Shown here: positions 10,471 through 61,000 of the stretch, piece after piece
How positions within the stretch are numbered: the first letter of the stretch is position 1
Layout: each line of letters starts with the position of its first letter
Assembly: GCA_051362555.1 (NCBI GenBank)
Contig: CM120640.1
Span: forward strand, 16,058,001 to 16,122,000
Direction: 5' to 3'
From: Lingula anatina
Lineage: Eukaryota > Animalia > Brachiopoda
DNA: 64,000 bases
Notes under the pieces: model-generated
What the model was told of the DNA's origin: nothing
Databases searched by the model: none
Seen by the model: only the letters and a program-made list of their open reading frames with translations
Made by a program: the position numbers and the translations under genes

Positions 10471-11885
10471 ACTTAACTTTGATTGCACCATTTTTAGTTA
10501 TATATATTTTTTGCATATTTTGAAAATTCTTGTTGATTGCATTTTTACAGCTTGTCAAGCACAAGACTGGTGGCTGCACCCCTTATTTTGTGTATGTGGG
10601 GGTCTATACGAATGCGCTTGCTCCAGCTGGTGGTACAATATTCGGAGGCGGTATCGCCTCTCTGATCCTCTAGTTGAATATCTGCAGTTGTGCAATTGGG
10701 TGTACAATGAAACCTTTCATTACAACTTACTTGCACAAAGCACCATGTTATCTCAGAATAGTCAATACATTCAAATAATTACCTCATGCTAGAGTTTCTA
10801 AAATGTAATTGCGAGTGGTCACTGCATTAAAATGGATGATTTTACACACATTTTTACTCTCAACTAAACTCCATCCCCACATTAATTCGTTTAGATATTC
10901 AAGTATGGAAATGGTATGTACCCTACATTGACTAAATATGTTAATTAAAGCTCCATGGTGCATAATGTTTGGTTTCCATTCTTGAAAAAGGTCTCTTATT
11001 TACCCTATCATATAGGCTTCTCTGCATGCTTAACAATAACAGTCACTGCCATGTATAAAAAGGTCTTAAAAGAGAGCTTTGCAAACCACATCTTCGTATG
11101 TGTAAAAATTATATGAAAACATATCTTACTACACCATATTGTGTTGAAGATTTGTATCCAAAAACAAAAAGTAAAAATAAAACAGACTAAGAAAGGAAAA
11201 GAAAAACACCTGTTTTAATGGCCGACAAACTATCAGATTTTGCATCAGCATTCATTGAGCTTGAAAGCGAGAGCACCTGCTTTTGGAGTTATGTCCATCT
11301 ACTACACATGGAAGTATTTTATTTCATGCCAATATAACCGAATTATTACTGATCTCTGATTTTCTACACGTCATTTTAGTGGATAAATGATCGTTATCGT
11401 TCTACGATTAGGTCAGTTAAATTTTATTATATGTAAAACACATGTTCAGGTGTCTTCTGATTTGAAAAGGTAGTAAACTAATCTTAAGGGTTAGGCATTG
11501 CAGAAAACATAACAATCTTCACTTATCTCTCCATATCCTTGTTGAAACATGACTTATGGCAACCTATGCCTAGCCAGTGTTAACTTACAATGTAAACAGT
11601 GCCCAATTTTTTCATTAATTTCAGATCTTGGCAGTAATTGTGATCACATCTTGGGTTTATGTCATTGCTGCAGGCAGGTTTGCATCTCTGAAGTTTATAC
11701 CTGCATCACAGTGAGAATTACCAGAGAGAGAGAAGCCTTGAAAGACAAGTGATTTATGTGAGATCTCCAGAAATTTTTTAATTCACCAATCATTTAAAAA
11801 TTAACAGAGACTTAGCAGTTCGCTATCACTTGTGAAGTAATGAAATGCCCTGTTGGCCCTTCAAGAAGGTTCCAATGGATGCAAG

Positions 11886-12625
11886 ATGGAGGTGATAGAT
11901 GAGAATGCTTCTATGCTAAGCAATTTTGAGATTTACACTCTGTTAAAAGATATTCAGCAAGGACAACACGGGCAGAAAAAACCAAGCAAACAGCAGCAGC
12001 AGCTTTCCACCATTTCCTATGAAACAATCAAATACTTAGAGAAAACACCCTGCAAGCATCAAAGCCCAGAAATTATTGCTGACTTTATCAAGGCATTGGA
12101 GCCCTTCAAGCTGAGTAAAGCTGAAAAGATACAGCTGCTAAACCAAAGACCCTCCACTGCTGTAGAAATCCAGTTACTGATCGAGGAAAGTGAAGAGAGA
12201 CTGACAGAGGAACAGATTGAACAGCTTTTGGATTTGATTCTCAGTAAGTGGCAATTTTTTAAACAATACTGATAAGTTATGTTATGTTTTTACTTGTTTT
12301 TTTTTTTTTTTCTTTCTTTTTGGTCACGTATTTGTAATCACAGTCTCTTTAACTCTTATCTTTCGATCAGAAAGAATATCTCCCCTTAAAGGGTCTTTAA
12401 AGTAAAAAAAAATTATTTGAATGTTTAGATTTTTACAGTACTTCACTACAGAATTTCAATTTGTCTTTGTGTCTGATAGAGAGTATGTCACTGTTAAAGA
12501 TCTGCATTCCTTTAAGTTTTTGCTTGAATAATTAAATAATATTTGTACTTTTTTCAGATACACTCCCAGGAGACGAGACAGCTGAAGATTGTAGCGGGAA
12601 CGAACCAATGGAAGAGCAGTCTTGA
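11886..12625 (+). CDS. CRCP: DNA-directed RNA polymerase III subunit RPC9 / CGRP receptor component protein (~140 aa)
   Basis: Exons 11886-12243 and 12558-12625 (phase 1, GT-AG). MEVIDENASMLSNFEIYTLL..LSTISYETIKYLEKTPCKHQSPE..LSKAEKIQLLNQRPSTAVEIQLLIEESEERLTEEQIEQLL matches the RPC9/Rpb4-family signature. Confidence 0.93.
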
Positions 12626-15600: not shown

Positions 15601-17325
15601 AATAAAATACTTCATTAACAACTGGAATTAAAATTGAGTCATCAGCAATGATGTAAAGATACCTTGCTAGAGGTAAAACTATTAACATGGTACCAATCTG
15701 TTTAGATAGAAAAACATTCACTGCCTGTTTAGAATAAAAATGTTCGTTGCCGCTCGCTCTTAATCACATTTATTTCGTAACTTGAATTTGAAAATATAGA
15801 TATAGTTTATCCCACTCTTTGACAAGCGTGTTAATGCAGTAAGTCCCAAAGTCACGCGGCCGTCCATGTGCCTTCCCCCACGGGCAGTGTCTTGTTGCAA
15901 ATGTACAAGGGTACTTTTCCATAGATGAGCGTCTGACCGGAAGATGAACTGTAAAGAAAAAAAGATAGGTTCAATAATAGGGACAGTTTACTGGGTAACA
16001 AAATATGTGTAAACCATAAATTATGTTGTTTACCGTGCTGTGTTCGTCGTCTTCTTTTTATAGGAACTATCAGCAATGTAATTTCCTTATGATGCTGGAA
16101 TGTGTCTTCTTTGTCAGTTCTCTTTTTCTGGCGCCGTGAGTATAATCTAATATGCTTGATGAAATTTTAAAAGATTTTTTTCTGTTTTCTTTAGCATACC
16201 TTTCTATATCATAGCAATTTAATCACCAGAGAAAGGGACTCAATGAAATAGATTGATCCAACGGACTTAGAAAGTATGACGTAAAAAGACCGTTATTCAA
16301 TCAAATATTGCATAACAACTGAAATGTAGCGAAATAACTTCGTCTTTTTGCTATTTAACTCAACCCTTTCCTCAGTTTGGCCACGTAGTGTATTAATTCC
16401 TTTTCTTCCTCACGAAACAAAAACGTGATGTTACCCGTCATTTTTTTTTCACGTGGCATTGAGAACGAGGTCACTCTCTGGAACACGTTTCATTCATTCA
16501 TTCATTTTTTTTGTATTGTCGTAAACATGTTGTGGACAATTTTATATGTTATGGTCATTCACCTACTCGTATCTCAATTTAAGTATATGTTTCAGTGTGG
16601 TGACACGTCCCTTTGAAAAGAAGTGGGGCGTGGTGACATACGGAACGGTTGGTGGGTGACCGTCCACGCGTAAACCTCGTGTGCGAACCTCTTACCATAC
16701 CTTCCAACGCTCCGGGTCATAAATTACATTTGCAAATCTGAAAAAAAAAAAACAATAACGAAAATTATACAGAATAAATTATCGCATGGATCTTCTTAAT
16801 TCGTCAATAAATGTCAGTGAAACGGAGGCAAACTTTATATAGCGTTCGCGTCTAAGCAATGCTCCCATAGTGTGATTTTGCCGAAGTTACAGGGCAGGTA
16901 AGGTATACGTCATCTTGGGAGGTATAAAACCCGAGACGTTCAAGTATACGGCACATTATAGTCTTGACACCCGGCGTGTATGGGGGAGAACAGGTGAAGA
17001 ATAGGGTCGCACACTCAGGTGGGCTATTTTCATCGTTATATTTGTTTGTTTCCTTTGTTTATTTACAAATATGCCGTACTCAAGTGTATATATTTGTATC
17101 ATCTTAATAAGTATACAAAATTGTTTTTATTTTGTTTGTTTTTTGTTTCATATTTCTATTTATTTATTTTTCTTTATTTTCTTTATCGTATTCTTTTATA
17201 ATATTTATTTTTAAGCATAAATCTGTACATATTTATTGATGTGCATTTAAGATCAAAAGACAAACAACATTTATTGCTAGGTATCTTACCAGTTAAAAGT
17301 GGTGTTGTCACATTTTTACAGAACA

Positions 17326-20300
17326 ATGGAGGATATTTACATTGAGCAGCAACAACAGTTTGCAGATTCTTCTGTTCGCAAGAGAGGTGTTTCAGACCCA
17401 TCCAAATTACAAGTGGACCGACCAGTCTTCACCCAGAAAGAGTTCGATGATGGCTACGACTTTCATGAAGACGAAAAGAAGACACTGAAAGAGCGCTTGC
17501 GAGCCTGCAAAAGACGCTGCTGCTTCTCGTCTGGCAAAAAAACGCGCGATTTCTTCCTCAGGTTATTCCCGTTTATTTCCTTGGTCAGAAACTACAAATT
17601 CCCGGACTGGATTCCAGGTGATATCATCTCGGGGCTGACGGTGGGCGTGCTGCAACTTCCGCAGGGTAAGTGAACGAAAAGCAGGCGTTTTCCGAGCGAC
17701 CTATCACTTGTAATGCTTTAGATTGTCATTAAAACACACCAGTTGTAATTTGAGTTGATAAAAAAATTATTTTGGTTATTATTAATTTTCTTCTTCTTCT
17801 TCTTCTTCTTCTTCTCCTCCTCCTCCTCCTCTTTATAGAACACATTCTGTAATTTTTCGAATTTAAAACGTATATTGGACGAGCTATTTATCGAATACGA
17901 TTGCGGTAAGAAATATTAGTGTTATTGTCTCATTTCACTAAAAGGGCAATTTAGATACATCTCTATATATTTTACGCTTCACAAAATATCTTTAGTTGTA
18001 AATTGTAACCAATGGACATTTTCGATTTGGCCAGGTTTAGTTATTCAGTCCGCCTTGGGGGCAAAATTTGACTGATTTCGTGATATCCGTTTCGTTTTGA
18101 TTATCTAAACAGTATATTGCGCCGGATCATTACACCCCGAAAAAGGGTGGCTTGAAGAAATTTGTCATGAACACAAAATATGGCAATTGAGCAAACAATG
18201 CGATTTAAGCCTTAGTTCGGAACATACCCATTAACAAAAACTGACGAACAGACGGGCATGCAGGAAAGGACGCACGCGCGCACACGCACTCACACAGAAA
18301 CACGCACACGCGTACCAAGAGAGAGAGAGAGAGAGAGGGAGAGATAGGGTGAGAGATCGTCCTTTTCACTGTATACTCACACAACGACAACGGTGCAAAT
18401 GAGATATACCTTGAACAAAAAGGTACACTTACGTTGTCAACAATCAATCAAATCTATCGAGACCGAGACAACGGTAACAGGGCTTTTATCAATGAAAGAT
18501 ACAGCCGCTAAGTAAATCCCTCCCAACACGCACGAATGCCTACTGAAAGAAGGACATTGTTATACTAGCAACTATCAAAACTTCCTTTAAAATAATGAAA
18601 ATGTCCGTCGTTAGTAAAAAGCTTTTTTTCGTAAATGTGTTGAGTTGCTTGCACGTCGTTTTATCCCGAAAATTCGTAGAATGATGGAGAATGGTATTTT
18701 TCCCGATAATGCACTGTGGTTTTGCTATTTCCTTTTTTTTTTTCATTACCGCACAAAATTACGTTGTGCTTCAAAAAATTAAAGGACATACGTTAATTGA
18801 AAAAAATAACCATTTATATCGCATTTTAAAAGCTCGTAACAAGGATAGGCAGGCAAGAAGGAACCTTTTGATCCATTATTTTCGATTGTCCATGGTATTT
18901 GTTTTTTGTTTAATTTTTAAAACTTTCATCTTTTTGTTACATTTCATGAAGTTTATGAAATTTGTCCTTTTTGTCTGTGTAATTAATTTATTTTCTATTT
19001 CAGGTGTTGCGTACTCCTTGCTGGCCAGTTTGCCACCAATCAACGGCCTCTACGTATCGTTTTTTCCTCCACTCCTTTACTTTTTTATGGGGACCTCAAG
19101 ACATGCGTCTGTAGGCAAGTTAACGGCGTGTACACCCACTTTGTTCTTAATATTCTTATGTCATAATTCTAATGCCTTTTCAGAACAACTTAATTTCGAT
19201 TATGAAGACCATTTTTATTGCATCACATCACGCGATTTTTGAGAACGGCATGGCCAACCTTAAGTTCTGAAACAGTCCAAGGTCGGTCGTTGCATAAGCT
19301 CAGCTAATCATTCAACATTTTCAGTCAGTGCTTTTTTTCTGAACAATGCCACTTCTGCTACGCTTGCGCAAGATGGATAGATTAATGTTCAAAACAAAGA
19401 ATACTTTGTGGATTGGTACTGTCCGTAGATGTTGCGCGTCGTTACGTGTGGTGCAAAAAAAGACAAAAGCTCTCTTTGATTGCACGCACCTAGCAATAGT
19501 AACGATGTCAAGATCTTAGACACGGTGTCTAACGAAGACGGAGATATACTGTTTTAATTGATTAATAACAAAATGCACGTTATACTCTTTCATTTGCCAT
19601 AACTAAATGGAATTACGCATGCTTGTTTGAAGTACCTGTCACGTTTCACAAGAGTGCATCTAGTAATATGCAAACGTTGGTTCGACGAAGGTTGAATGAA
19701 GGTTAAAGAAAATACAAAGTTGGAAAAATAGATATAAAGAAGTATTAAAATTTCTATTCATCACGAAATAATGAAATGATGGAAAAGAAAAAAAACATAA
19801 GGACACTAAATTTAAAAAAAATCATTAAAAATGAAAGAAAACATGTTTGTAAGAGAAGTTTTTTCGTTATCCAGGCACGATGGGCGTGACCTCCATTATG
19901 GTAGGGTCCGTAGTGGACCGGGAGGTGCTCAACTACTTCAGCCACATCAACAACACACTGGACCACTACAACGACGACCAAGACATGACGCAGTTTAAAC
20001 TGGGCGTGGCCACAGCTATCACATTCCTGGCAGGAGTTTGGCAGGTAAGGCGTGTGTGTGTGCGTGTGTGCGCGCGCGCGTGCGAGCACGCGCCAGTGGT
20101 ATATGTGCGGATGGGGCGGGTACACATGTAGGTGCATAGCACAACTGACTCTTGCTTTAAATTATTATTATTATTATTATTATTATATGCAAGTTCAACC
20201 CAGTTTTACAATATCTCTAGTAGTCGACTTTCAATCAACTACTCTGACCACAAAAAAACAGATTATTTTCTTACTTTAGATGCTGATGTGGATCAGTGGT

Positions 20301-21273
20301 CTGTCCCTAGTGGTGGACTACCTCTCTGACACCGTGATCAGTGCGTTTACCTGCGCTGCCTCCATCCACGTCATCTCGTCCCAGCTGAAGTATATATTTG
20401 GCGTCGATATACAGAGACACGCGGAGCCGCTCAAGTTGGTAAAAGTAAGTCTAATGTGAAATAAAAAACGGAGCCGCTCAAGTTGGTAAAAGTAAGTCTA
20501 ATGTGAAATAAAAAAAGGTTCGTGTCTGTGTTGGGGGGGGGGGGGGGGAGGGGGGGGGGAATAAAATCTTTCTCGTTGTGTGGACATTCGAGGAAATTTC
20601 AAAAGAAAATCAGCCCTTCATTGCTATCATTTTTGCAAAATTTAAGAAGCAGTTGTCGCTTTTTTATGAGATAAGTTGGTGTCACAGCTTTTTTCTGTCA
20701 CATTATTAGTGCAAAACAAAAAGGATAAAAAATAATGTTAACCAACATCTTCTGAGGGACAAGAAGAAAGTTTGCTTTCTTCAACATTATTATTTTTAAT
20801 ATTAATGATAATGATAGTAATAGGCAACTTTCTAGACAGGAATGAATTATAATCATAAAGATGTTATATTATAATTATATCTGATTTTCCTTGTAGACGT
20901 ACAAAGACATCGTCCTAAACCTGTTCAATACCAATGTATCAGAGCTGGTGATCTCGCTAATCTGTATTGCCAGCCTGGTCATAGTGAAGGAGTGCATTAA
21001 CGCCAGGTGTAGGAGGTCCAAACTCAAGGTGAAGATACCCGTCCCTGTGGATCTCATCGTGGTATGTAAGATATATATACATATATGGTCTACCTATCCT
21101 ATGCTCAAATATAAAAAAGTAAATGCCTGTCACTGCGGATCTGATTGTTGTACACCAACTAATAAATATGGTCTACCCATCCTTGGCTCAGATTTAGGAA
21201 GTAAATGCCTCGGGATCTCACTGTGGTAAGGAACAGGTTCGCCCTCCAATCCTATACCCATATTTAGAGAGTG

Positions 21274-29896: not shown

Positions 29897-30857
29897 CTAG
29901 AGGATCAGAGAGGCGATACCGCCTCCGGATATTGTACCGCCAGCTGGAGTAAGCGCATTCGTATGGACCCCCCCCCCCAAAAAAAAAGGGACACCACCAC
30001 CAGTCTTGTGCTTGACAAGCTGTGTAAAATGCAATCAACAAGAATTCTCAAAATATGCAAAAAAAAATATATATAACTGAAAATGATACAATCAAAGTTC
30101 AGTTCATCGTAAAAAGTAGGTCAAAGGTCAATTTTAGGGTCACAGTGAATTGCCAGTATATGACTTCCTATTCAAGTTCAATAGTAACTATGAACCTATC
30201 TCTGCCAATTTTTGAGATAAAAGGGAACCAAATTTGCAAAGTTCAATTCATAGTGAAAAGTAGGTCAAATGTCAATTATAAGGTCACAGTAAATTGCCTC
30301 TAATGACTTTCTATTCAAATTCAATAGTAACTATGGACCTTTCTCTGCCAATTTTGGAGATAAAAGGGAACCAAAATTTGCAAAGTTCAGTTCATGGTGA
30401 AAAGTAGGTCAAAGGTCAATTTTAAGGTCACAGTGAATTGCCTCTAATGACTTTCTATTCAAGTTCAATAGTAACTATGGACCTATCTCTGCCAGTTTTG
30501 GAGATAAAAAGGAACTAAAATTTGCAAAGTTCAGTTCATGGTGAAAGGTAGGTCAAATGTCAATTATAAGGTCACAGTGAATTGCCTCTTATGACTTTCT
30601 ATTCAAATTCAATAGTAACTATGGGCGTATCTTTGCCAGTTTTGAAGAATAAGCATTAAAAAAGTTGCAAAGTTCAGTTTATGGTGTAAAGTAGGTCAAA
30701 GGTCAATTTCAAGGTCATAAGATTACCAGTATAAGACTTCCTATTCAACTTCAATAGTAACTAGTGACCTATCTCTGCCAGTTTTGGAGATAAAAGTTGC
30801 AAAGTTCAATTCATGATGAAAAGTAGGTCAAAGGTCAATTTCAAGGTCACAGTAAGA
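29897..30857 (-). mobile_element. HINE copy B (3' half only; ~5 diverged 146-bp satellite units)
   Basis: Reverse complement of the copy A 3' end (CTAGAGGATCAGAGAGGCGATACCGCCTCC..TTGTACCGCCAGC) followed by satellite units. It ends abruptly against transposase coding sequence. Confidence 0.9.
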
Positions 30858-32593
30858 ATACTGCATCAGCAATAAAGTACAGTTTAAGACCTTGTCCATA
30901 TAGATTTTCTGTCCAATAAACTACAGCATCTGGCCTGTGATTCACTGTGTTATGCATGCGGTAAAATCTGCGGTTTGGTGTTGCTGCATTGCAAACAGTA
31001 GCTCTCACTTTAAAACCTGCAGTTTCCAAGACACGGACATTTCCCCAAATTGTTGGATAAAGTTGTTCGGCATTGAACCCTACACAGGGGTAATGAGCCA
31101 ATGTAAAAGAGTAGCTGTCCACAATTCCCTGATCCATGGTCACCAGTACATGAGTCGCCAACTGGGGTTCTGCATCCTCTCCCTTTTCTACAAGGCTGCC
31201 GAATGTCCACAACTGCTCATTGAAACTGCCCATATTACAGAGCCCAACAAGCTCACCACTATTCTTTGAATACACAAGGTCCGACTTGATTTTCACTTCA
31301 TCAAAAGCAGAACAACATTTTTCTTAGCTTCTGGGAGTTTGGAGAATTCAATGGCTTCCACTTGCTGCTTGAGAAAATGAGCATTCACTTTGCCTGGGGA
31401 AAGAGAGGTGTAATGTTCATAGTCACATAATGTCCTGGATGTTGGCAGAGAAAAAAATCCTGACTTATTGATCAAGTCATAAGCTGCACGAGAAATTGAT
31501 TTCAGCTGCAGACACCAACGTATCATCATTGGATGCCATCTCATGCTCTTCTTGTTGCTCAGCTCAGCTTGTTTTTTTTTTTGTTGATCCCACAGCAGAA
31601 TCCGGCTGGAAGGTCCTACCAATGTGGGCATCACTGTCTGTCATAATCTTTTGTAAATCACTGGATACAGATTCATGCAGAGTTACCCCTTCTCTCTCCA
31701 CTAGTTTCGCCACATGCTGCATTAGAGCCTTCTTCTTGTTTGCCTCCAATGCTTGTTGAGATTTGACATTTGCTAGTCTCTCTCAAAGTTCCTCCGAATC
31801 CAAAAGTTTGAGGGGAATATGTGATGAAGCAGATGTTTTGTCACTTTCTTCCACCTTCTTGCTTCTGTGTAGTAATTGTTTTAGATTATTTCGAAAATTT
31901 ACACAACTGATACACCTGGTCCCCTTCACTAAAATTGTACAGTTTTTGTGGCGGATTGTCCTTTTAAAGGTTAAATTTCCACTGACAATTGGAAAACCCT
32001 GTTCTTCAGAAGCAATGATATCACCCATGGAATTTTCAAACTTGGCATTTCCAGATGGACTGCGTTGTCGGCAGATTGGGATATATTTTTCATCTGGATT
32101 ACCAGGGCACTTATTGTAAAATAAGACTATTTTAAACAACTGTTCAACGTCCTCTAGCACAGGCGGGATTTCAGATAAAAGCTGAGAGTGGGAAATTTCT
32201 TTTCCAAGAACTGTCACTTTCCAGGTTTTGTCATTTCTCAAGGTGAAAATGTGAGTAAAAACTGGCATTCTTAGTCCTCCAATCAAAGCAAATGAGGGTG
32301 TAGAGCCAAAGTTATATGAACCACCACCATCATCTCCTATCTCCAACAGTCCATATTTTGCACCAATTTGTCTGGTTTGTGTCAGGAAATCTGTTGTCTG
32401 TGGGGGTGAGAGCACAGAGCCTTGTGTCTCAAGTAGCTGCTGCGTACTTTCTACATCCTCCTGCTCCTGGGGCTGTTCAGTTGTGACTACATTTGCCAGC
32501 AAATCTAGAGAAGATACGTCATATGCCTCTTCTTGATCTGTGACCTTAAATGAGTAAGCACTAGGTATATAACAACACACAGATACTCGTTAA

Positions 32594-37687: not shown

Positions 37688-40600
37688 CTATGATGGTAAT
37701 TTCTGTGCTAGATCTTTCTGTTCAACCTTATTCAGGGCACACTTCAAAGCAAACATGGTTGCTTTCTCAGGACCTTGTTTCTGCCTCCAATTTCTCAGCA
37801 ACTGTATTTTCTGCTCCATTAAGTCATCAGGATGCCTGAAATATGAGTTGCACATATTACACACAAAAAAAAACAACTTATTTTAATTTTACTATATATC
37901 TATTCTATTACAAAAACATTTTAAAATTACAAAATACAGACAGAGACCGTTAGGCCATCAAATAACAGACACTTTTAATTTTCAACTTTTTTCATGATAA
38001 AAAATCACAACAAAACTCTTTTTAAAGATAACTTTCTTTAACTTTAAGTAAGTTTCTTTTAATTTCTCCTAGTACCTATGTTGGACATTTTCTATTTCCA
38101 CATTGGTCAGTCCCAGGGCTCTGGCCAGTGGCCATGTTGCTCGTTGTCCAAGCTCACCAGCAATCACATCAAACACTTCTGACCACTCCTCTGGGCTGGC
38201 AGGATGCACAAGGAGCTATGATAAGAATGAGATTGTCACATTACTTAATATCTGTGGAATGATTAAAGATTTTCTGTTACTTCATTTTATATATCATATC
38301 ATTTTTAAAGATACAATTTACTATCATTATAAAATGGAGAACTTAAATTGCCATAAGTCACTGATAAGTAAAACTATTAACGATTCATTAATATACATTG
38401 AATATGTAAAGGAATAGTTAGCAAGAAGGGAAAACCTTGTTGAAAGAGCTTGCATTCATCTTTCCCATCCTCTGCAGCTCCTCATTGATGTAGATTGTCG
38501 TGGTGGCAAAAGCTGTCTCTCCATACTGTACACCAGACGAGCTTTTAGAAAATGGTGGAAACTTGATCTTGCTAGCCAGCACTGGGGACCTGTGTGTGAT
38601 TTCTATCACTGTGCTGAAACTGGTGTCCTTCAGCATAAATTGCGTGTTCTGCAGGACGTACTCTGCTGCCAATGGAGGGAAGTCACCATTGTGACAACAG
38701 ACTAGTTCCTCCACTTTCTTACACTGGAAATAATTTATATTGATAAAGCACGCATGTGTAAATAAGAAAGTCTCTCAATATCTCAGTAACTGGTTTTTCA
38801 AATGTAAAGTTGCTTTTATCAGCTTATATTTTCATTATCATTATTTCTGTTTTCTTTTGTTTCTGTTTTCTTTCTTTTATTATCATTATTATTATTTTTT
38901 TTTTTGCAAAACATTCAAAAGCATTAAAATGGACAAGAATTACTGGAAGTGGGATTATCACATCTGAATGAGTCATTGGTTTTGCACAAGGTAAATTACT
39001 GACAATTTGTTACATCTTTTAAAGGCAATCTGTAATGTAATGTAATGTTAATGTAATGTAATGTCTCCTCTCACCTGGCGCAGTGAGAAGATGTGAGGTC
39101 TCCAGCCCTCTGGCAAATTCCTGTCATCCAGCTCCATTTCAAACTCACTGGTTTGCCCACTTGCTTTGGGGGTCAATTCAATCCTCTTTTGATCAAGAAG
39201 AACCCTATTTTCTCTGGCTTTCAAGTGCTAGAAAAAAAAACATTAAAATTTTGTTGTATTGTATATCAGTATTTCTTTCAAAAAATATCCTTAACTTAAA
39301 TGAAATTATAAAAACATTGAGGTATAAAGAACGCTTGTTAGAAAATGTTAATGTACTTTACTTGCTCCCATTGATAATTGGCAGTAACATCCCATTTTTC
39401 TTTTAATGTTTTTATTTTTGTCCTCATATAGTGTAAGAAAGAAAACAAAACCTGTTAAAAATGTCACATACCTCCAAGTAATCCTTGATTGCATACAATG
39501 TGTCACATAGGTAGAGCCTCAGTCTGACTTCTCTGTTGGGTTTATTCTTAACGGTCTTCTCCGAGAAGGAACCAAAGACCACTGCATCAATCACCATGTC
39601 TTTATCACTGCGCTTTCGACATGTGCAGAGGAACAGGGTAAAATGTGTGGTTTGTAAGTATATGTAACCATCACGCAGGGTGAAATACATGTCTTGGTGT
39701 ACATTGTTCTCCTTGCTTTGGTATGGCACCTCTTTGAAGATGTAAGGGGCTGTGGTTGACTCACTGCAGAGCACTCGTATGTCTTCCCATAGGTCACGGT
39801 CTGCAATGCAATGTGGTATCTTGACAAGAACGTGCTTCTTAAAGGACTTGTCACCACACAGCTTGTATTCTACTATGGGGGATATAATTCTCTCGTCTGG
39901 GCTAACAGCAGACACAAATGGCCTTTGGTCTAGGATGACCCCATCTTGCACAGCAAATGTCTGTCCCTTGGGCACTGCCCCCCTTGGGATATGAAGCTCC
40001 ACGGCAGACCCCTCTCTGACCAGCTGACCTCCAGATGATGTGAAGAAAGACATATTCTGATTGTCATTCAGTTTCTGCTGGGAACTAGAATTTGACTCAG
40101 AGTCTGCCTGCAGTAAAGGCTGGGCAAGATTGGCATTGTTGGTCTTGACATGCTTCTGGAGATTGGATGGAACATGGAAAACTTCATCTTCGAGTTCTTC
40201 AGCTGCTGCTGGTGGGTGGTCAAAAACCCGCGAAGTTGAGGGCTGATCTGGTGACATCCGGTTTCCATCCTCATCGAGCCGGGTAAACTGTTTCAGTTGG
40301 ATTTGTGTTGTCAATGACGACATCTCATTCAGTTCTTTTCGGATCCCTTGTTCTTGAAGCCAGTTAGAGCCTTCAAACACCTTGGGTCTTACTTTCACCA
40401 AAGTTGCCTTCTTGATAAAGCCTTTTGTGAGGCTCTTCAGGGCCTCTTTTTTGTCAAAACCCTTAAGCTCGCTCATAGCATCATCTAAGAATACAGGGAG
40501 GGACGACGTGCTCTTGCATTCTCTCTTCAGCCCTGCAGGGATGGAAGTATGGTGATATAATGAAGCTGTTCTTCTCGAGAAATCAAAATGGGTGTCATCA

Positions 40601-43354
40601 TGGACCTGCTTCACAGTGACCTCTATGTGAGGAGGAAAGAAAGACAAGGAGCTCATAGAGTGGGACAACTTCTTGAGTTTGGGTTTCTCCCCTGAGAGAT
40701 GTGCCAGAAGATCTGCAGTGGACCTGGAAATGAGCCCTGGACTTTTCTGCTTCTTTTTGCCGGGTGATTTGCCTCTCTGTGGTGTGGTCTGTGTGTCCAC
40801 TGTGTGTAGCATTGGCCAGGTCTGGGCAATGTCCCTGTGAGTGGGGTCTCGTTCCAATACATCTTGATACTAAGAACCAAAAGCAAAAAAAAAACAATCA
40901 ACTCTTAACTGAACTGAAGACTGGTTCACATATGAAAACTAGAGGTAAAGTAAATAGAATATTTTATATGGTGCGCAGCTAGTATCCTTAAAGCAATCAA
41001 TATGTTAAAACAGAAAATAATAGTAAATGGCATCTTATAGCAATGTTACTTTTGGATAAAACTTTTAAAAAATTTTTTTAAATTTAAAAAAATCATAAAT
41101 GTCTCACTTCGAATAAAAAAAAATGTTCATCTATTCAATTTTCAATTTTTTGTGTATGTCAACTATTGCACAGTGACTACTACCAATAACAATAAGTGCC
41201 ATATATATTTACTCACCCTGACAGCAATCTCTACATGTTGCTGTCTGGCCCTATTCTTAAATCTGCGGTACACACAGCAGGCAATGAAGAACACAATGAC
41301 CAGCACACCTATCACAACCACTATGATGATCACTGGGGTTTCCCAGCTCGATGCTCCAGCAGTGTGGTCCACAGATATTGTATCTAGAGAGAGAGAGAGG
41401 GCAATCAATTAACACGATATTACATAGCATTTTGATTAGACTGATAACAGATGAGTGGCTGGGGTTGAAGTACTATCTTGTTTGTTGTTCATCCCTGTAT
41501 AAGTTTTATCTACACTTATTTTGTGAGCTTTTGATTTTTCTTGACAGGCAGGGAATTATATATATATATATTTTCAATTGCTTGTTTCTTGAACATAAAG
41601 CTATATGTTAGATTTAAGAGCCTTAATTCTGAATAATAAAATAATATTTACTATCAGATAAGGCTACAGACTTTAATATTTTCCCATCTTATAGGACAAT
41701 TAAATTTTTCAAAACACTTCACAGAGTTTACCTTCAGTATGGGCTATAGGAGTTTTACGTGTGCTGGGTTTAGTGGGAAGGACCTCGTAGGGAGCCGCTG
41801 GAGAACCACCTCGTGCTGCCACCTGCAGGCTGCCTGCAATATGCAGGAGGCGTAATGTATATCAATTATTAAATTTCAAAGTGAAGTACATGTCAACTCA
41901 CAATATATTTTTCATATACCAGTATTTTCAAAACTACAAGATATCTTAAAACTGTTACATTGTTTCCGAATAAAACACACCAGGTGTTATATTGTTTAAT
42001 ACTTTTACTTTTATTAATATAAGTATCTCTGACCAAAACAATTTTTAGAATAGAATAATACATCAGTTGATTCTGTATGGCCCAGGGAGTCATGACACTT
42101 TACATTTGAAATCTTATCAGTCAAGAAGACACATGTCAAATAAGTATCAACAATTATATCCATACAACATGTTTGTGTTTGTTCAGCTGACATTGATGAT
42201 AAACTACTGCAAGGAATAACCTGACAACAGCAAGTATGAATTGCTTAGCTACCTTAGCCATAAAACATCACTATATATCTCAAAGCCTGTAGCCATAAAA
42301 ATATGCTGGTGGTGGGAATAATTACTTTATATTTATTCATAATAGTAAAATATGGATGGTAAGATTGGCAGAATCTAGGCCAACAGAGGTAGGCCTATTT
42401 AGCATAGGAAATAATGTCAAATAAGACACTTACAGATTAAAACTATTCATTAGCTTGGTGGTTGGATCATATATGATTATTTTAAAACACAAAGTAAAAT
42501 TTAAAATATTTCAGCTTGTGTTTTATAATTATCATACATAAGACACAGGCTGTTATCCTCGTTTTTTTTTTATGCAACATTTTGGGCATAGGGGACATAT
42601 TTTTGTATCAACCTATCAAACCAAAGCAGATTTGTGAGTGATAACCCTTTTCTGACTTAAATTAGATTTATCATCTTTAAAACATTCACTGAAAAAACAA
42701 AATGAAAAAAAAAAGAAAGGAAATACATACAAATACACACATATGTACAAAACAACACCAGGTTTTCATCAACTTACCAATACACTTTGCATCTGTTGTG
42801 CTGGTACAAGACTGTGCCTTCAGTCCACTGCACTGAGAGCACGGAGTGCAGGCACCTGTGTGCTTCTTGTCTGCATAAAACCCTGGGGGGCAGGGCCGAC
42901 ATGGGGTCTCATCCTTAGGGTCACAGGGTAGAATAAGACCAGTGCCTGGGGGACAGTGGAAATGAGGGCTACACTGGTGACGCAGGGTGCGTTTTGTCTT
43001 TGCCTAGAAATGGATGGATGGATGTCAGTTTTAGTAGAGGAATGCTCTTCATACATATCTTAAAATAACTTAACTTGGAAATTATAACATTACTCTGACA
43101 ACATGTGTTTTCATGTTTAAATGCAGAGATTCCCAATAACTTTACACAACAAAATATTGTTTAGATATTCAAAATCCTTCAATTTATGAAATGTGTTGTT
43201 TATTACCTTGTAATGGAGTTATGGAGCATGGATGCATTAATTTCTGAAATTGCATTCAAGTTACCTGTGCCGTCTCTTCTAGGCTAGCAGCCAGCACAGA
43301 ATCCACACACACAGCAAGCACCAGGCTGGCTACAGCTACTTGAACACTGATCAT
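37688..43354 (-). CDS. TNF-receptor-superfamily-like type I membrane protein with cytoplasmic ZU5-UPA-death domain, ~903 aa
   Basis: Nine phase-compatible GT-AG exons. 43354-43265: signal peptide MISVQVAVASLVLAVCVDSVLA. 43003-42778: TNFR Cys-rich repeats CPPGTGLILPCDPKDETPCRPCPPGFYADKKHTGACTPCSQCSGLKAQSCTSTTDAKC. 41833-41732: Pro/Thr stalk. 41383-41217: TM segment VIIIVVVIGVLVIVFFIACCVY followed by RRFK. 40869-39472: disordered linker plus ZU5 GGQL..VELHIPRGAV..ISPIVEY..FKKHVLVKIPHC..HFT. 39227-39075 and 38723-38436: UPA-like. 38215-38076 and 37835-37688: death domain IAGELG..WPLARALGLTNVEIENV..EQKIQLLRNWRQKQG..AT..L..AL.KVEQKDLA. Confidence 0.82.
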
Positions 43355-46195
43355 TTTTCCATGGGTTCACATTACCTTCAGAGAGAAAAATAAAATACAA
43401 ATTCAAAAGTTTAATGAAAAATTGTGGAAAAAATCTACAGATTTTTTCAGCTTTAATTCTCTTAGGATTCTGAAGAATAGATATGCTAGAGTAAAGTAAT
43501 AATATTTTTTTATTTAAAAACTAGACAACATTTTCCCAATAAAATGTCCTTGTTTCAGTACCAGATTTTCAGACAATCATTTATTTATGTGTGTATGCTT
43601 GTTACAACACTCCAACCTAATAATACATCAGAGCCTAAGCAGAAACTTCATGTCAGCCTTATCACTATACTGCTTTATCAAATGAGTCAACACCTCCAGT
43701 AAACTTTTTACCATATCTCCTTCCTTTCAGGTAATGTAAATACAATTACTATAGGCAACCAATGTTCCGATCGCTAACCCTAATCTATCATTGTTTCCTG
43801 TCACAGTGTGCAAAGAGCAATTTTCAATGAATAATAAAGAGCTTGTTAGGTATATCATTTGGTTCCCTTGTTTTCTGTTGTGAAACATGACTGCAAAGAA
43901 AATGTTTAATCTTTTCCCCATTCAGAGCAATTTCAGATGAAAAGAACTACTCTGTGATTAATCCAATGCAATCGAAACTGAAAAATTTCCCCAATAATAA
44001 TCCATTACTTTAACCCAATGCAATCATCAGCTGTGCATTGCTGACATGAAACATTGTGATACTGGATCAATTTTCTCCACGTTAAGATGACTTCATTCTG
44101 ATAAACCTGCTTGCCTAATCACCTTTCAATAATAATGTCCTCCCAAGTAGAAAGAAATGGCCATCCTTAGGGCAAAGCACCTAGGGTGTATCACACCATC
44201 TCCAGATTAAACCATCCATAATGAATATAACTGTCTCCAAAACCATTACACTGACAACAGCTGTGTACAAGTAGTGCACGGTATGAACAGAGATTTACTC
44301 AACTATTGAGTGAACATGTGGGCGGGAGCATGTGCCCGGACATTCCAATTTGTGTTGATATTTGGACAGACTGATAAAGTGTCAGCAAATATATTACTGC
44401 ATGAGCTGATAAAATGGGCAGAATTGGATAGGGATACTATTTTGAGCAGTTTTAAAATGAATGTTTTTACCCCACTGGAATACATTGAACTGAACCATTG
44501 GGTTGAATAGAAAGCTCACATCCTGTCAGGTCTATAATTTCCAATAATGAATTATGAATAAGCTATGGATGAAAACATCTTCAGATCTCTTTGTGTCAGC
44601 TTCAAGACTAAGTATTGATTTAACAAAGATATGTTGTTAAAAATCCAACTCTACAATTCTCTCATTATTTTTTGTCCTGAAATCACACACATGGTTCAGT
44701 TTCAGGTTACAGATACCTTGAAAAGATATTCTACAGGTATGTTGTACACGTCCCAAGATTATATATAGCACAAACCTGCCTGCTTTTAAAGTTCATTCAT
44801 TCCTCCTTGTCCTTAAACCACGTATGTCTAGTATAAGCAGAAACCAGGTGAATGTATGGCTTTTTGCTGTGGTATAAGAATACTTACTTCTTACTTGTTC
44901 CTAATAAATAAACAAATTGCACACTGGCTGTCAGCTGATCTGTTGTAGCGTAAACCTGACTCTTTAAAGACAGTTGCTACACTGTTTGCTATTATGTCAC
45001 TCATATTAATCTCATGTGGCTATAAGGTGGACACAGGGACCAACAGTAGTCCATTGGTCATTATATGGATGAGTGGCATTTAATGAGTCAGCTAATGTCA
45101 CCACCTGAACACATAAACAGAGGTAGAGAACAATGGCAGATGACTCACTTAGCATTGTGGACACTATTCTACCTGTGATTTAGAGTGGCAAAAGGTTTAC
45201 CTTATATATCAGGACTTGTGGTCAACTTTTTTATATGGGTAGCAGCTTAAGTTTACCTTGTACTGAGGCTTGTGGTAAAGTTTTATACAGACAGCAGCTT
45301 CAGTACCAGGCATAGAGTAGTTTTTTGATACAGCACATTTCTGATGAGATTTTCAGTTTGGTAATATGTCTCAATTTAATACTGAAATCTAGTATCTGTG
45401 ACTTTGAGTGCCAACAACTTTATCTGTGACTATGCAGGCTTTATACAGAAGTGTAGTAGCTTAAAAACAGGGCAAAGGATGGTTTAACTTTGACTCGGTA
45501 TCTTTATGAGATATTGATTCAGTAAGATGTTTTCAATACTAAGTTCGTATTTTTTTGCCTCCATGCCATTCATTGCATGTGGGCATCACATGATCTGTTG
45601 CTTCAATGTTTGGCCTTTGTGACATTTTTAATATATATTCCCCACAAAAATGAAAAAATTGTAAGGAAGTTGATACAGAAAAAAGGGCTCACAAAATTTC
45701 ATATCACCCCACAGCAAAAGGTGAGATCGCATCTGGAGCAAATTAACAATATGTATATAAACCACATAATACATATGCGCCAAACTGATATCACAGTACA
45801 TATCTGCAGGAGTCCCATTATTTCTGTGGCATGGCAAGCTCCTGGTTAACCTTGTGCACATATTTATACACACACTCTCTCTCTGGCACCTTGGCATTTA
45901 GAAAGGTTCAAAACAGTTATAGTAAACAAGCCAGTCATTTTCATATAAATCATATAATCAATGCAGTTCTGTGTATGGTGCGTTGAAGAACAAAGACTGC
46001 AGTCCCTCCATATTAAAAGAGACAGGTTGCTGATATCAGATCGTAAAATGTATCGGTAAAATAAAGGTACAGCTATCTGACCTAAATTTGATTAAAACAC
46101 AAACATACTTGACTAGACTTCTACCTGTTGCTCTCTCGAACCACTTAAAAGGATCCTATTCACTTTAAATACAAGAATTTAAAAGAAACTCTTAC

Positions 46196-46345
46196 CTCAC
46201 CTCGCTTTGACCGGGATTTCTTTGTGAACATGGCATGTTCTGTGTAGTAGCCAGCAGGTAAATTGAGGGGAATCCCCTCCACTTCCTGCCACTGGAGTGA
46301 TGTCATCAGGTATATATAGGTAGCTCCTCAGGTGAGTCATTTACT
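46196..46345 (-). promoter_or_regulatory. Putative promoter and non-coding first exon of the TNFR-ZU5-DD gene
   Basis: AP-1 TGAGTCA at 46333-46339, TATA-like TATATATA at 46311-46318, CRE-like TGATGTCA at 46298-46305, ETS ACTTCCTG at 46281-46288, kB palindrome GGGGAATCCCC at 46267-46277, a second kB-like GGGATTTCT near 46213, and a minus-strand donor AG|GTAAG at 46195. Confidence 0.55.
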
Positions 46346-58017: not shown

Positions 58018-61000
58018 TAATAATAATTCATGCAATAAATTATACCCAGTATAAGTAAAACCAAATTTACCTAGTATAAATTTCTCTATATTTAATGACC
58101 CTGCATTGCGATGTAGTATATGGTATAGTGAACCAGTTATAACATTTCAAATATCTGCAAGATTCCAATTTAATTGGAAATATGTTGAGGAAAACCATGA
58201 TATCCTACCCTTATCAGCAGCTGAAATACTATTGCTCTTAAGCATTTACAACAACCTCTTCATTAGAGATAATATTAAGTACCAGGTCTTGAAAGGAAAA
58301 GGGGAATGACTTGGAAATGCTTTACCCACAGCACAGCAGTTAGAGACCTGAACCCAGAGAAATGAGTTATTTGTGTGCAGTTTCCTCCATAAGTCACATC
58401 ATATTACCAATCTCATTTCAAAAATAATTGCATGGAAATGTACAAAATGCCCCCCGAGTACCCAACTCCGGCAACTCTAAATTAAATATCACAACCTTGA
58501 CATTATAGACCCCCAGAACTAAGAGCATCTTTTCCGTTCTCTTTTCAATGCATGCCTTTCCAATATCCATGGAAATAACCCCAAATCCTGAGTCACTGGT
58601 TAAGTGTGCGCCCTGGGGGAATAAACCCATCACCTCAGTTGTTGACATTCAGCAGGTGTGTGCCCTGGAGAAGACAGGATGAAGAGAGGGACTACCCAAG
58701 TGGATTACTGTGCTCTACACTAGAAATAATTTTTTGTGGGGCAGAAAAAATTGTTGGTTGTTTTGGTGCAGATTGAAGTGGTGCTAGCTGGCAGTTTCAC
58801 GGTTTATAGGGACAACCAATTGATAGAACTCGATTGACACCGCTGAAACTTGATAAAACATGCAGATTGAAAAATTCCAGTTATGTGTATACAATCTTAT
58901 TTAAAATGATGGAAAATGAAATCACAGGACTGAGTTGTGAATGCCCTGGATGTGGGCATAAATCTTTGATAGGAGGACTAAATTAAATTGTAAATTTTTA
59001 ATTAAATGTACCATAGCAATGGATATTTTCCATGGATATCTGTATCCATTACACCATGGTTTTTGAAGTCTCTACAAAACATGGCTTTTGAACACCAAAA
59101 AGTATAGGATATATTTTTTGCCAAAGGATACTTCTTGATATCCTACATCTGCCAATTCACGTTATTGATATTGCATTTAAATCTGGTCTATCATACTGTC
59201 TATGGTAGTTGACCAACTATAATGCAGGTTCCTTCAACTATTAGATCTCACAAATAAAATATCTGTTTTGCAATTTTTGCTTCAATTTAAGTTCTCTGCA
59301 CAACTTGCATGTGACCCCACTTGCCCTGTTGCCCAACAAAACTCAGGTGTGCAGTAATAACATGTAGTCCTATGGGAGGAAGAAAGTTAGAATTACAATG
59401 TTTTCTGATCATATGTTCATCATTAAGTCTGGGTCTTGACATATTTGCTCACACAAAGTTTTAATAAAATACTAAGAGGGGGAAAAGATATCACAAGAGA
59501 GCAGCACCAAATTATACTGTTCTGACCTCAGCATCCCTCTGAATCAATCTAGGACTTAGTGCATGTATGCTATATATCACTATGGACTTTCATTACATAT
59601 ACCAGGGTTCACAAACTGTTGCTGCAAATAAGGTCCATTACTCTTCCTCTGAACACCGTCGACAAGGGCAATGTTACGTTTAAAATCTAAATCGATGTTT
59701 TACCTCACCAACTGCAAATTTACAAGGGCAATAACCGGTGAGGGGTACTTGATGCCTTCCCATTGATCTGACACTAATAGTGTTAGCAAATTTTACACAC
59801 AAAGGGCAGTGCAAACGAGACATTATCAGCACATGTCCTCCTGGGCCCTCCTTCTTTCTTGTTTGCATCATTATTGATTACAGAGACACTGTGTTGTCAA
59901 TGTGAGAGAAAAAAAAGGAGTAGGAATCTATGAACTATAGTACCTTTCTCCCCATCATCAATCTAATACAAGTCAAATATCATCTTTCTCATCCAGACAC
60001 CAAAATCTATGAAATTTCGAGTGCATTTTTCGCATATACTTTTCTCTACATTCCCTACCCTATGTACCTTTATAAGGATTTTTCCCTTTAGTTCTTCTGG
60101 TGAAGGCAATTGTATAGCATTCTCATCTGTAGGTTTAGCATACAGTTTGTCTCCAAACACTGCCTTCATATAGTGCACCATGGCCTGCTGGAGCTTGATA
60201 CAGCAGTGGTTTTCAATGGCAAGAATCACAGGGTACCTAGAGAAGCCAGAATGGGAGGGTATGAGTTGACAAAATAAAGAAAAAGTGTATGCAATATGAT
60301 GCTGCAAGAAGTTAAAAAAAATTGTAAAGCCTAAAAAATATGCATGGAAACCAAGAAATATCCCAAGGGTATCATTATGATAATGCACCTTTCACTCTTA
60401 AACCCCTCCAATCTTTACTTGGTAAAAAGAGTTTGCTTCAGATTTGGGTTCTTTCCGTATCATTGTACACAAACAATTAAGTACAGAGGGCAAACTCACA
60501 CAACACCAATGCTGAGTACATTACAGCAATTGCAATTACATTAGAGCTCCAAGGACGGCATAAGGAATTGGATTCAGACGGTTAATTGTAAAATTCCATG
60601 ACCTGATGCAATATCTCAGGACAAAAATCAGTAGGTGGTTAACAAAATCAATACACAGGCACTCTCACACCATCCCTTTTATCTAAGATCTAAAATGTAA
60701 TAACTAGATAGGTCTTGGTCTGATTTGATCATCTAGTGCAGTCTTTACAAACTATTCACTGATCTTGATAACATGGCCAAGGACTATAATAAAGTTTATT
60801 GTTATATTAAAAGGAAACACCACATTCAAATGAAAAGGAGCATACTTTGCTTCATATCTGCAATTTGTGTCAAGTACATTTAATTTGCCATCTTTGCCTA
60901 CTGAGAACAATTTTTTAATGGAATATTTCACCACAGCCATCTGATTCAAATTAATTTTTTAATGTACGGGTTTTACCCAACTTGGTATGTCAAAATAAAA

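What the first reader, a model, noticed from the sequence alone, without database searches (positions are those of the whole stretch)
37688..43354. Chimeric death receptor: TNFR ectodomain fused to an UNC5/PIDD-type ZU5-UPA-death domain tail
Seen: nine exons join in frame into signal peptide, ~1.5-2 TNFR cysteine-rich repeats, stalk, TM, ~290-aa disordered linker, ZU5, UPA-like region and death domain. The signal-peptide, CRD and first DD exons are missed by the ORF track, so automated annotation would probably call only an UNC5-like fragment. Established: vertebrate death receptors (TNFR1, Fas, DR4/5, EDAR, NGFR) have no ZU5-UPA module before the DD. The ZU5-UPA-DD supramodule belongs to UNC5 netrin receptors (Ig/TSP1 ectodomain), UNC5CL, PIDD1 and ankyrins; in UNC5B the ZU5 holds the DD in an autoinhibited state. 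Inference: a TNF-family-ligand receptor whose death domain is gated by a dependence-receptor-style latch, arising by exon shuffling. Similar architectures may already exist in invertebrate protein databases; I cannot verify novelty.
Basis: partly seen in the sequence, partly recalled or inferred. Interest (0 to 1): 0.85.

Follow-up and report, generated by a model that had tools for sequence, protein, structure and literature searches.

The report
Self-cleaving TNF-type death receptor family
A brachiopod gene, spliced as one transcript across its two halves and with counterparts in molluscs, echinoderms and an acorn worm, joins a TNF-receptor-type outer part to a signalling tail that is predicted to cut itself and would then likely release a cell-death domain inside the cell.

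Summary
Observation confirmed. Nine coding exons give a 903-aa protein: signal peptide, 1.5 TNFR repeats, TM, 287-aa linker, ZU5, UPA, death domain. RefSeq already holds it whole and uncharacterised (Lingula anatina LOC106172725), so annotation did not miss it.

It is not a one-off chimera. TNFR-repeat + TM + ZU5 proteins occur in nine other species: three molluscs, five echinoderms, one hemichordate. The ZU5 ends in His-Phe-Thr (604-606), the PIDD1/UNC5CL self-cleavage motif; 86 of 88 relatives keep Ser, Thr or Cys there. UNC5B does not cleave here, and the model leaves the death domain outside the UNC5B closed position.

Best reading: a self-cleaving receptor holding a releasable 34-kDa UPA-death-domain fragment, more like UNC5CL/CARD8 than the proposed UNC5B latch. 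Ligand, cleavage and output are untested. Nine literature searches found no description, but key subscription papers were unreadable. The scan earlier noted this tail under an LRR ectodomain on other DNA, not this architecture.

The parts
46196..46260 (-). 3' end of an upstream exon, likely non-coding (donor at 46196/46195; its 5' end was not determined, 46260 is a placeholder)
   Evidence: Loose read ends at 43377 in runs X4 and X8 match the window from 46198; GT donor and 2820-nt GT..AG intron to 43375
43265..43375 (-). Coding exon 1 (acceptor 43375; ATG 43354; predicted signal peptide, residues 1-22, 43354-43289)
   Evidence: Hydropathy; joint to exon 2 in 13 reads
42778..43003 (-). Exon 2: 1.5 TNFR cysteine-rich repeats, 10 Cys, residues 41-104 (42973-42782)
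   Evidence: Pfam TNFR_c6 E 6.7e-10; model matches OX40, OPG, 4-1BB, RANK ectodomains, Foldseek E 1e-4 to 5e-4
41732..41833 (-). Exon 3: Pro/Thr-rich stalk
   Evidence: joints in 23 and 18 reads
41217..41383 (-). Exon 4: transmembrane helix, residues 156-178 (41336-41268), followed by basic residues
   Evidence: Kyte-Doolittle 3.67; joint to exon 5 in 34 reads from all 4 runs
40051..40869 (-). Exon 5, first part: most of the 287-aa cytoplasmic linker, no known fold
   Evidence: No Pfam or atlas match; pN/pS about 0.09 against a diverged population
39619..40050 (-). ZU5 domain, residues 469-612 (exon 5)
   Evidence: Pfam ZU5 E 2.6e-9; model pLDDT mostly above 90; fold match
39637..39645 (-). 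His604-Phe605-Thr606, predicted self-cleavage site (Phe|Thr)
   Evidence: H 77, F 86 and S/T/C 86 of 88 aligned relatives; lies in the loop before the last ZU5 strand; motif and chemistry per PMC3210808 and PMC9162469
38490..39618 (-). UPA domain, about residues 613-790, across exons 5, 6 (39227-39075) and 7 (38723-38436)
   Evidence: Superposes with ZU5 on 3g5b, NLRP1 7crw and CARD8 7jn7 (Z 20.0, 14.8, 14.7); atlas structure rows name PF17217 UPA
37688..38215 (-). Exons 8 (38215-38076) and 9 (37835-37688): death domain, about residues 815-901, and stop
   Evidence: Pfam Death E 3.2e-11; FADD DD Z 15.7, rmsd 1.4, 87 aligned

Best explanation
This is an expressed single-pass receptor gene with a TNFR-type ectodomain and a ZU5-UPA-death-domain tail, and the protein likely cuts itself at Phe605|Thr606 and would hold the freed UPA-death-domain piece as a releasable signal. 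Steps: (1, shown) one spliced transcript joins the CRD, TM and ZU5 exons. (2, predicted) Thr606 attacks the preceding bond, as Ser does in PIDD1, Nup98 and UNC5CL, giving a 65-kDa membrane piece and a 34-kDa UPA-DD piece. (3, inferred) The pieces stay together because the cut leaves the last ZU5 strand on the C-terminal piece. (4, inferred) Ligand binding, most likely a TNF-family protein, clusters the receptor and/or leads to removal of the membrane piece, with the long unfolded linker a possible degradation handle as in CARD8. (5, inferred) Freed UPA-DD oligomerises and recruits DD partners of the FADD/RIPK/IRAK kind for NF-kB or caspase signalling. My odds: architecture 0.97, cleavage 0.8, release as the switch 0.5.
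For: Junction reads. Motif column 606 holds S 46, T 34, C 6 of 88 rows. It is the only one of 164 well-filled columns that mixes the three residues able to do this chemistry at 85% or more; at 604, His is replaced mainly by Ser (8 rows), the NLRP1/CARD8 variant. All eight TNFR-bearing relatives from other species that are complete at this point keep HFS or HFT. The site lies between strands 597-602 and 607-613 of a confident model, and the model matches NLRP1 and CARD8 ZU5-UPA. Ser, Thr or Cys can be the nucleophile and fragments often stay associated (PMC3210808, parts 1-2 of 5 read; PMC9162469 passages). UNC5CL keeps the cleavage and canonical UNC5 does not (PMC10084454 passage). CARD8 needs a disordered N-terminal region for release (PMC7594595 abstract). 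UPA promotes death-fold filaments (bioRxiv 2020.06.27.175497 abstract).
Against: No cleavage, ligand or signalling was measured. The 88 relatives were found by likeness to this protein and chosen by me for ZU5 coverage, so H and F conservation is partly built in, and kin share residues. The ectodomain has only 1.5 repeats, so ligand binding cannot be assumed. The linker shows pN/pS about 0.09 (40 of 68 listed differences seen), more constraint than a mere unfolded handle would need. Pfam does not detect a death domain in the three molluscan relatives. No caspase-2 was found in Lingula (bioRxiv 2023.12.11.571055 passage), so a PIDDosome-type output is unlikely.
Confidence: 0.5

Rival explanations
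1. The protein self-cleaves as a maturation step only. The two pieces stay bound at the membrane and it signals like an ordinary death receptor, by ligand-driven clustering, with UPA aiding death-domain oligomerisation.
For: Same motif evidence. Cleaved fragments often remain associated. A TNFR ectodomain is built for clustering (established knowledge).
Against: In NLRP1 and CARD8 the cut serves release of the C-terminal piece. A long linker ahead of ZU5 is present in every TNFR-bearing relative aligned.
Confidence: 0.27
2. One reading: an uncleaved UNC5B-like closed supramodule in which ZU5 latches the death domain until ligand binding or loss opens it.
For: UNC5B 3g5b is the top fold match (E 7.5e-17; Z 20.0), with a single ZU5 and the same domain order. 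A latch could also coexist with cleavage.
Against: UNC5B has Leu677 where the cleaving proteins have Phe; this protein has the full HFT. In the model only ZU5-UPA superposes on 3g5b (chain 541-828), and the whole-chain rmsd is 23.7 A. Predicted domain placement is weak evidence, though.
Confidence: 0.13
3. The cysteine-rich part does not bind a TNF-family ligand. It binds another ligand (as p75NTR does) or is one of several exchangeable outer parts on a self-cleaving tail that senses proteolysis or stress.
For: The same tail carries Ser/Thr-rich, galaxin-repeat and Ig outer parts in relatives. p75NTR is among the sequence matches (E 3e-7). The repeat is short and divergent (17-26 bits in eight of nine relatives).
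Against: The repeat is kept in ten species of four phyla. Single-repeat TNFRs such as BCMA and Fn14 do bind TNF-family ligands (recalled).
Confidence: 0.09
4. Two neighbouring genes, or a mis-assembly, read as one.
For: Short reads only; no single molecule spans CRD to death domain.
Against: An unbroken chain of joints from exon 1 to exon 6 (the 3>4 joint in 3 of 4 runs, the others in all 4), a RefSeq model of identical length with 5 differences, and the same architecture in nine other species.
Confidence: 0.01

Closest known systems
UNC5CL (ZUD)
   Same: TM + single ZU5-UPA-DD tail with retained autoproteolysis (PMC10084454 passage); activates the IRAK cascade per the title of Heinz et al. 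2012 cited there (paper not read).
   Different: UNC5CL lacks the UNC5 extracellular domains; this protein has a signal peptide, TNFR repeats, a stalk and a 287-aa linker, and Thr in place of Ser. Orthology was not tested.
TNFR-superfamily death receptors (TNFR1, Fas, p75NTR and invertebrate p75-like 'PITA' receptors)
   Same: Type I topology, TNFR_c6 repeats, C-terminal death domain.
   Different: 1.5 repeats only, and a ZU5-UPA module with a cleavage motif between membrane and DD. The PITA survey, which includes Lingula, has 0 occurrences of ZU5 or UNC5 in its main text (its supplements could not be seen).
UNC5A-D netrin receptors (UNC5B, PDB 3g5b)
   Same: ZU5-UPA-DD order and fold (Z 20.0, rmsd 3.6, 283 aligned).
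   Different: Ig-Ig-TSP1-TSP1 ectodomain absent; UNC5 does not self-cleave (Leu for Phe); closed DD position not reproduced in the model.
PIDD1
   Same: His-Phe-Ser/Thr motif at the ZU5 end, yielding a UPA-DD piece (PIDD1-CC 37 kDa; here 34 kDa predicted).
   Different: PIDD1 has LRRs and two ZU5 domains and no TM; its partner caspase-2 was not found in Lingula.
NLRP1 and CARD8 (FIIND)
   Same: ZU5-UPA fold (Z 14.8 and 14.7) followed by a death-fold domain; unfolded region ahead of ZU5 in CARD8.
   Different: Cytosolic sensors with CARD and an SF/S motif; no ectodomain or TM.

Membership tests
TNFR-superfamily death receptor | Signal peptide and single TM helix (type I) | tested here: met
   Hydropathy peaks at 1-22 and 156-178; no dedicated signal-peptide predictor was run
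TNFR-superfamily death receptor | Extracellular TNFR cysteine-rich repeat | tested here: met
   TNFR_c6 above cut-off; fold matches are TNFRSF ectodomains
TNFR-superfamily death receptor | Cytoplasmic death domain | tested here: met
   Pfam Death 43.7 bits; FADD DD Z 15.7, rmsd 1.4, 87 aligned
TNFR-superfamily death receptor | Binds a TNF-family ligand and recruits FADD/TRADD/RIPK1 | not testable with these tools
   No ligand or adaptor sequence on hand; needs binding assays
UNC5 netrin receptors | Ig-Ig-TSP1-TSP1 ectodomain | tested here: not met
   The 155-aa outer part holds TNFR_c6 and a stalk only
UNC5 netrin receptors | ZU5-UPA-DD tail | tested here: met
UNC5 netrin receptors | Closed ZU5-DD autoinhibitory contact | tested here: inconclusive
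UNC5CL | TM + ZU5-UPA-DD with a self-cleavage motif | tested here: met
   HFT at 604-606; motif only, cleavage not shown
UNC5CL | No folded ectodomain | tested here: not met
   TNFR repeats present and spliced in
UNC5CL | Orthology by tree | not tested
   No vertebrate UNC5CL, UNC5 or PIDD1 sequence was among the tree rows
PIDD1 | LRRs, two ZU5 domains, no TM | tested here: not met
   One ZU5, no LRR, TM present
NLRP1/CARD8 FIIND sensors | FIIND followed by CARD, cytosolic | tested here: not met
   C-terminal domain scores as Death and the protein has a TM; only the ZU5-UPA fold is shared

The most novel reading that the evidence does not exclude
An undescribed, possibly pan-bilaterian class of TNF-family receptors that signal by inflammasome-style release: ligand binding outside frees a pre-cut UPA-death-domain fragment inside. 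Vertebrate UNC5CL would be its ectodomain-less remnant, linking TNF signalling and PIDD1/NLRP1/CARD8 self-cleavage in one ancestral molecule.
Probability: 0.25. Interest if true: 0.85.

Novelty: new variant of a known kind. Interest (0 to 1): 0.62.

Why it matters
In vertebrates, TNF receptors and self-cleaving ZU5-UPA sensors are separate devices. Here they are one protein, kept in at least four invertebrate phyla and filed in databases as 'uncharacterized' or 'Netrin receptor UNC5'. It offers a one-mutation test (T606A) of whether an outside ligand can drive a release-type death-fold switch. It may also show what the ligand-less UNC5CL came from, and it adds a missed branch to invertebrate TNF signalling, including in sea urchins, where it can be studied.

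Tried and rejected
No whole genome is held for the window, so paralogs and TNF ligands could not be counted. Word-index protein searches with this protein's tail found only itself, and the alignment search returned 6 proteins; these are insensitive and no evidence of absence. The run search listed no RNA holder; the runs laid came by species label. Complex prediction for ZU5-UPA against DD was not available, so the latch is untested. The linker gave no usable atlas hit. One TRAF-like PxQxS string at 402 and a dibasic site at 32-38 are short motifs, not treated as evidence. A second upstream-exon motif matched only at chance level. A recent origin from the Lingula paralog LOC106166144 was rejected (AU p 4e-5). 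Rejected as wrong: 'annotation would miss it'. Not readable: Liao et al. 2014 (PMC4258472), Heinz et al. 2012 (PMC3307986), the oyster immune-gene supplement and bioRxiv supplements. Amphioxus paper supplements: one ZU5 mention, no TNFR_c6. A 2018 survey of Lingula immune genes and the 2006 sea-urchin apoptosis and immunity papers (both recalled) did not appear in any listing and could already mention this architecture.
Full report
Gene model. Joined by coordinates they give 2712 nt, 903 aa and a stop, with eight GT..AG introns of 220-944 nt. Hydropathy shows an N-terminal signal-like stretch and one strong TM helix at 156-178. Pfam finds TNFR_c6, ZU5 and Death above their cut-offs and no UPA.

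Annotation. A search with the ZU5 region returned one protein among 886 candidates: Lingula anatina LOC106172725, XP_013409010-13.1, 903 aa, with Pfam Death, TNFR_c6 and ZU5 on record. It differs from the window's product at 5 of 903 positions without gaps. So annotation has the full protein, named 'uncharacterized'.

Expression and splicing. Four RNA runs from three studies were laid on 39465-43420, reading 6-26% of each. Joints: exon 1>2 13 reads, 2>3 23, 3>4 18 (none in X7), 4>5 34. Thirty-five loose ends at 39472 match the start of exon 6 (one run differs at one letter). Intron bins have no depth except a repeat-like stretch near 42450-42540 and a trace in one bin of X7. The two stranded runs place the RNA on the minus strand. 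No exon-skipping joint was listed. Exons 6-9 were not covered. Runs X7 and X8 come from a diverged population. Of the 40 of 68 differences shown, those in residues 322-655 are 26 silent and 9 replacing, pN/pS about 0.1 in both linker and ZU5-UPA. The gene is under purifying selection, linker included. Loose ends also show an upstream exon ending at 46196.

Structure. AlphaFold2 of residues 461-903 with 89 sequences gave mean pLDDT 88.1 and pTM 0.73. The best match is the UNC5B tail (Foldseek E 7.5e-17). ZU5-UPA superposes at Z 20.0, rmsd 3.6, 283 aligned; NLRP1 and CARD8 give Z 14.8 and 14.7 (rmsd 4.0 and 3.8, 247 aligned); the last 87 residues match FADD DD at Z 15.7, rmsd 1.4. UPA is thus supported by fold. 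The DD is not in the UNC5B closed position (whole-chain rmsd 23.7 A), which is weak evidence, as domain placement in one model is uncertain. The exon-2 model (pLDDT 77) matches OX40, OPG, 4-1BB and RANK ectodomains.

Relatives. A full HMMER scan gave 283 proteins at E<=0.001, of which the best 150 were listed. I ran Pfam on 55 of the stored proteins, chosen for length or a TM ahead of ZU5, and looked up names for 20. TNFR_c6 + ZU5 + Death occur together in Amphiura, Lytechinus pictus, L. variegatus, Strongylocentrotus and Antedon. TNFR_c6 + ZU5 occur in Ptychodera (truncated model), Lymnaea and Gigantopelta. Solemya has TNFR_c6 by Pfam, with ZU5 by phmmer only. Only Ptychodera passes the TNFR_c6 cut-off (35.9 bits); the others score 17-26 bits, but all nine show the repeat's cysteine pattern between an N-terminal hydrophobic stretch and a TM. 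The molluscan C-termini align with the DD but are not detected by Pfam. Other relatives carry the same tail under Ser/Thr-rich (amphioxus, a Lingula paralog, Owenia), galaxin-repeat (Potamilus and unnamed) or Ig (Dendronephthya) outer parts. Several, such as Biomphalaria, Elysia and Acanthaster, have no repeat in their models.

Trees. A quick 40-row ZU5-UPA tree (two rows mis-trimmed) was redone carefully on 24 rows, after dropping 16 long-branch, fragment or near-duplicate rows (bootstrap not fully settled). The window's protein groups with nine rows, 97/100: eight named molluscan rows, the three TNFR-bearing ones among them, and unnamed P0051/P0065 counted there only by position (seven named, two unnamed). 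The ambulacrarian TNFR forms lie outside, in an unresolved base. One clade for all nine TNFR-bearing rows against the four Ser/Thr and Ig rows is not rejected (p-AU 0.11), and not shown. Pairing with the Lingula paralog is rejected (p 4e-5). So the fusion likely predates the brachiopod-mollusc split; one bilaterian origin or two remains open.

Mechanism. The ZU5 ends in T-T-H604-F605-T606. PIDD1 and Nup98 cut at HF/S, NLRP1 and CARD8 at SF/S; Ser, Thr or Cys can be the nucleophile; UNC5B has Leu at the Phe position (PMC3210808, parts 1-2 of 5; PMC9162469 passages). UNC5CL keeps cleavage and canonical UNC5 does not (PMC10084454 passage). Among 88 aligned relatives, position 604 is H in 77 and S in 8, 605 is F in 86, and 606 is S 46, T 34, C 6. 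No other of 164 well-filled columns mixes these three residues so. Cleavage would give 64.9- and 34.2-kDa pieces, the last ZU5 strand going with UPA-DD. By analogy with CARD8 and NLRP1 (abstracts) I infer a held, releasable fragment. Nothing after the motif is shown: ligand, cleavage, release and partners are inferred. DD matches (Fas, PIDD, RIPK1, FADD; E 6e-5 to 3e-3) do not pick a partner. Caspase-2 was not detected in Lingula (preprint passage).

Literature and novelty. Nine full-text searches were read as listings with abstract openings; none showed a TNFR-ZU5 receptor. The search for six locus and accession ids gave 0 papers. Passages of PMC8195603, PMC11874512 and the PITA preprint do not describe it. 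The library lacks most subscription papers, and several supplements could not be seen, so prior mention is possible. The scan's own index had no look-alike sequence and no note with all the words; one note describes this tail under an LRR ectodomain in Owenia, which I did not check.

Verdict. A real, expressed, conserved receptor: a new variant that works, most likely, like UNC5CL/PIDD1/CARD8 on the inside and like a TNF receptor on the outside. It meets the sequence criteria of a TNFR-superfamily death receptor and is not a member of UNC5, UNC5CL, PIDD1 or FIIND families. Interest 0.62: unusual and directly testable, but built from known parts, already in databases, and one of several outer parts found on this tail.

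Noticed in passing
window 43362-43351 (-): A three-codon upstream reading frame (Met-Glu-Lys-stop) whose stop overlaps the main ATG at 43354; it could dampen translation of the receptor.
   Followed up: no
Run X1 shows a mixed loose-end consensus there, hinting at a second upstream exon that was not located.
   Followed up: partly
window 42469-42539: A 32-nt inverted repeat (81% complementary, 7-nt loop) in intron 2. About 250 reads of run X4 pile up on it but continue unlike the window, so it looks like a dispersed repeat transcribed elsewhere.
   Followed up: partly
window 43003-42975 (-), run X8: Loose ends after exon 1 show a diverged start of exon 2 in the second population (or a paralog), just ahead of the first cysteine; the basic K-x-K-R stretch appears kept.
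   Followed up: no
P0002, P0003: A second RefSeq locus, LOC106172703 on a 4-kb contig, repeats exons 7-9 at near identity, and an older 1082-aa model appends it. Probably an uncollapsed haplotype, not a two-DD protein.
   Followed up: partly
P0026, P0029, P0051, P0124, P0132: Proteins with galaxin-like repeats outside, a TM and the same ZU5-UPA tail (P0026 is from the bivalve Potamilus); they nest among the TNFR-bearing molluscan forms, suggesting an ectodomain swap.
   Followed up: partly
window 3579-3956 (-), 11844-12272 (+), 17281-21229 (+), 30847-32589 (-), 59963-60391 (-): Neighbours: LMBR1-like membrane protein, an uninterrupted RNA_pol_Rpb4-family frame, sulfate-permease (SLC26) exons, a broken TNP-like transposase and a PI-PLC X-domain exon. 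No immune gene cluster is evident among frames of 110 aa or more.
   Followed up: partly
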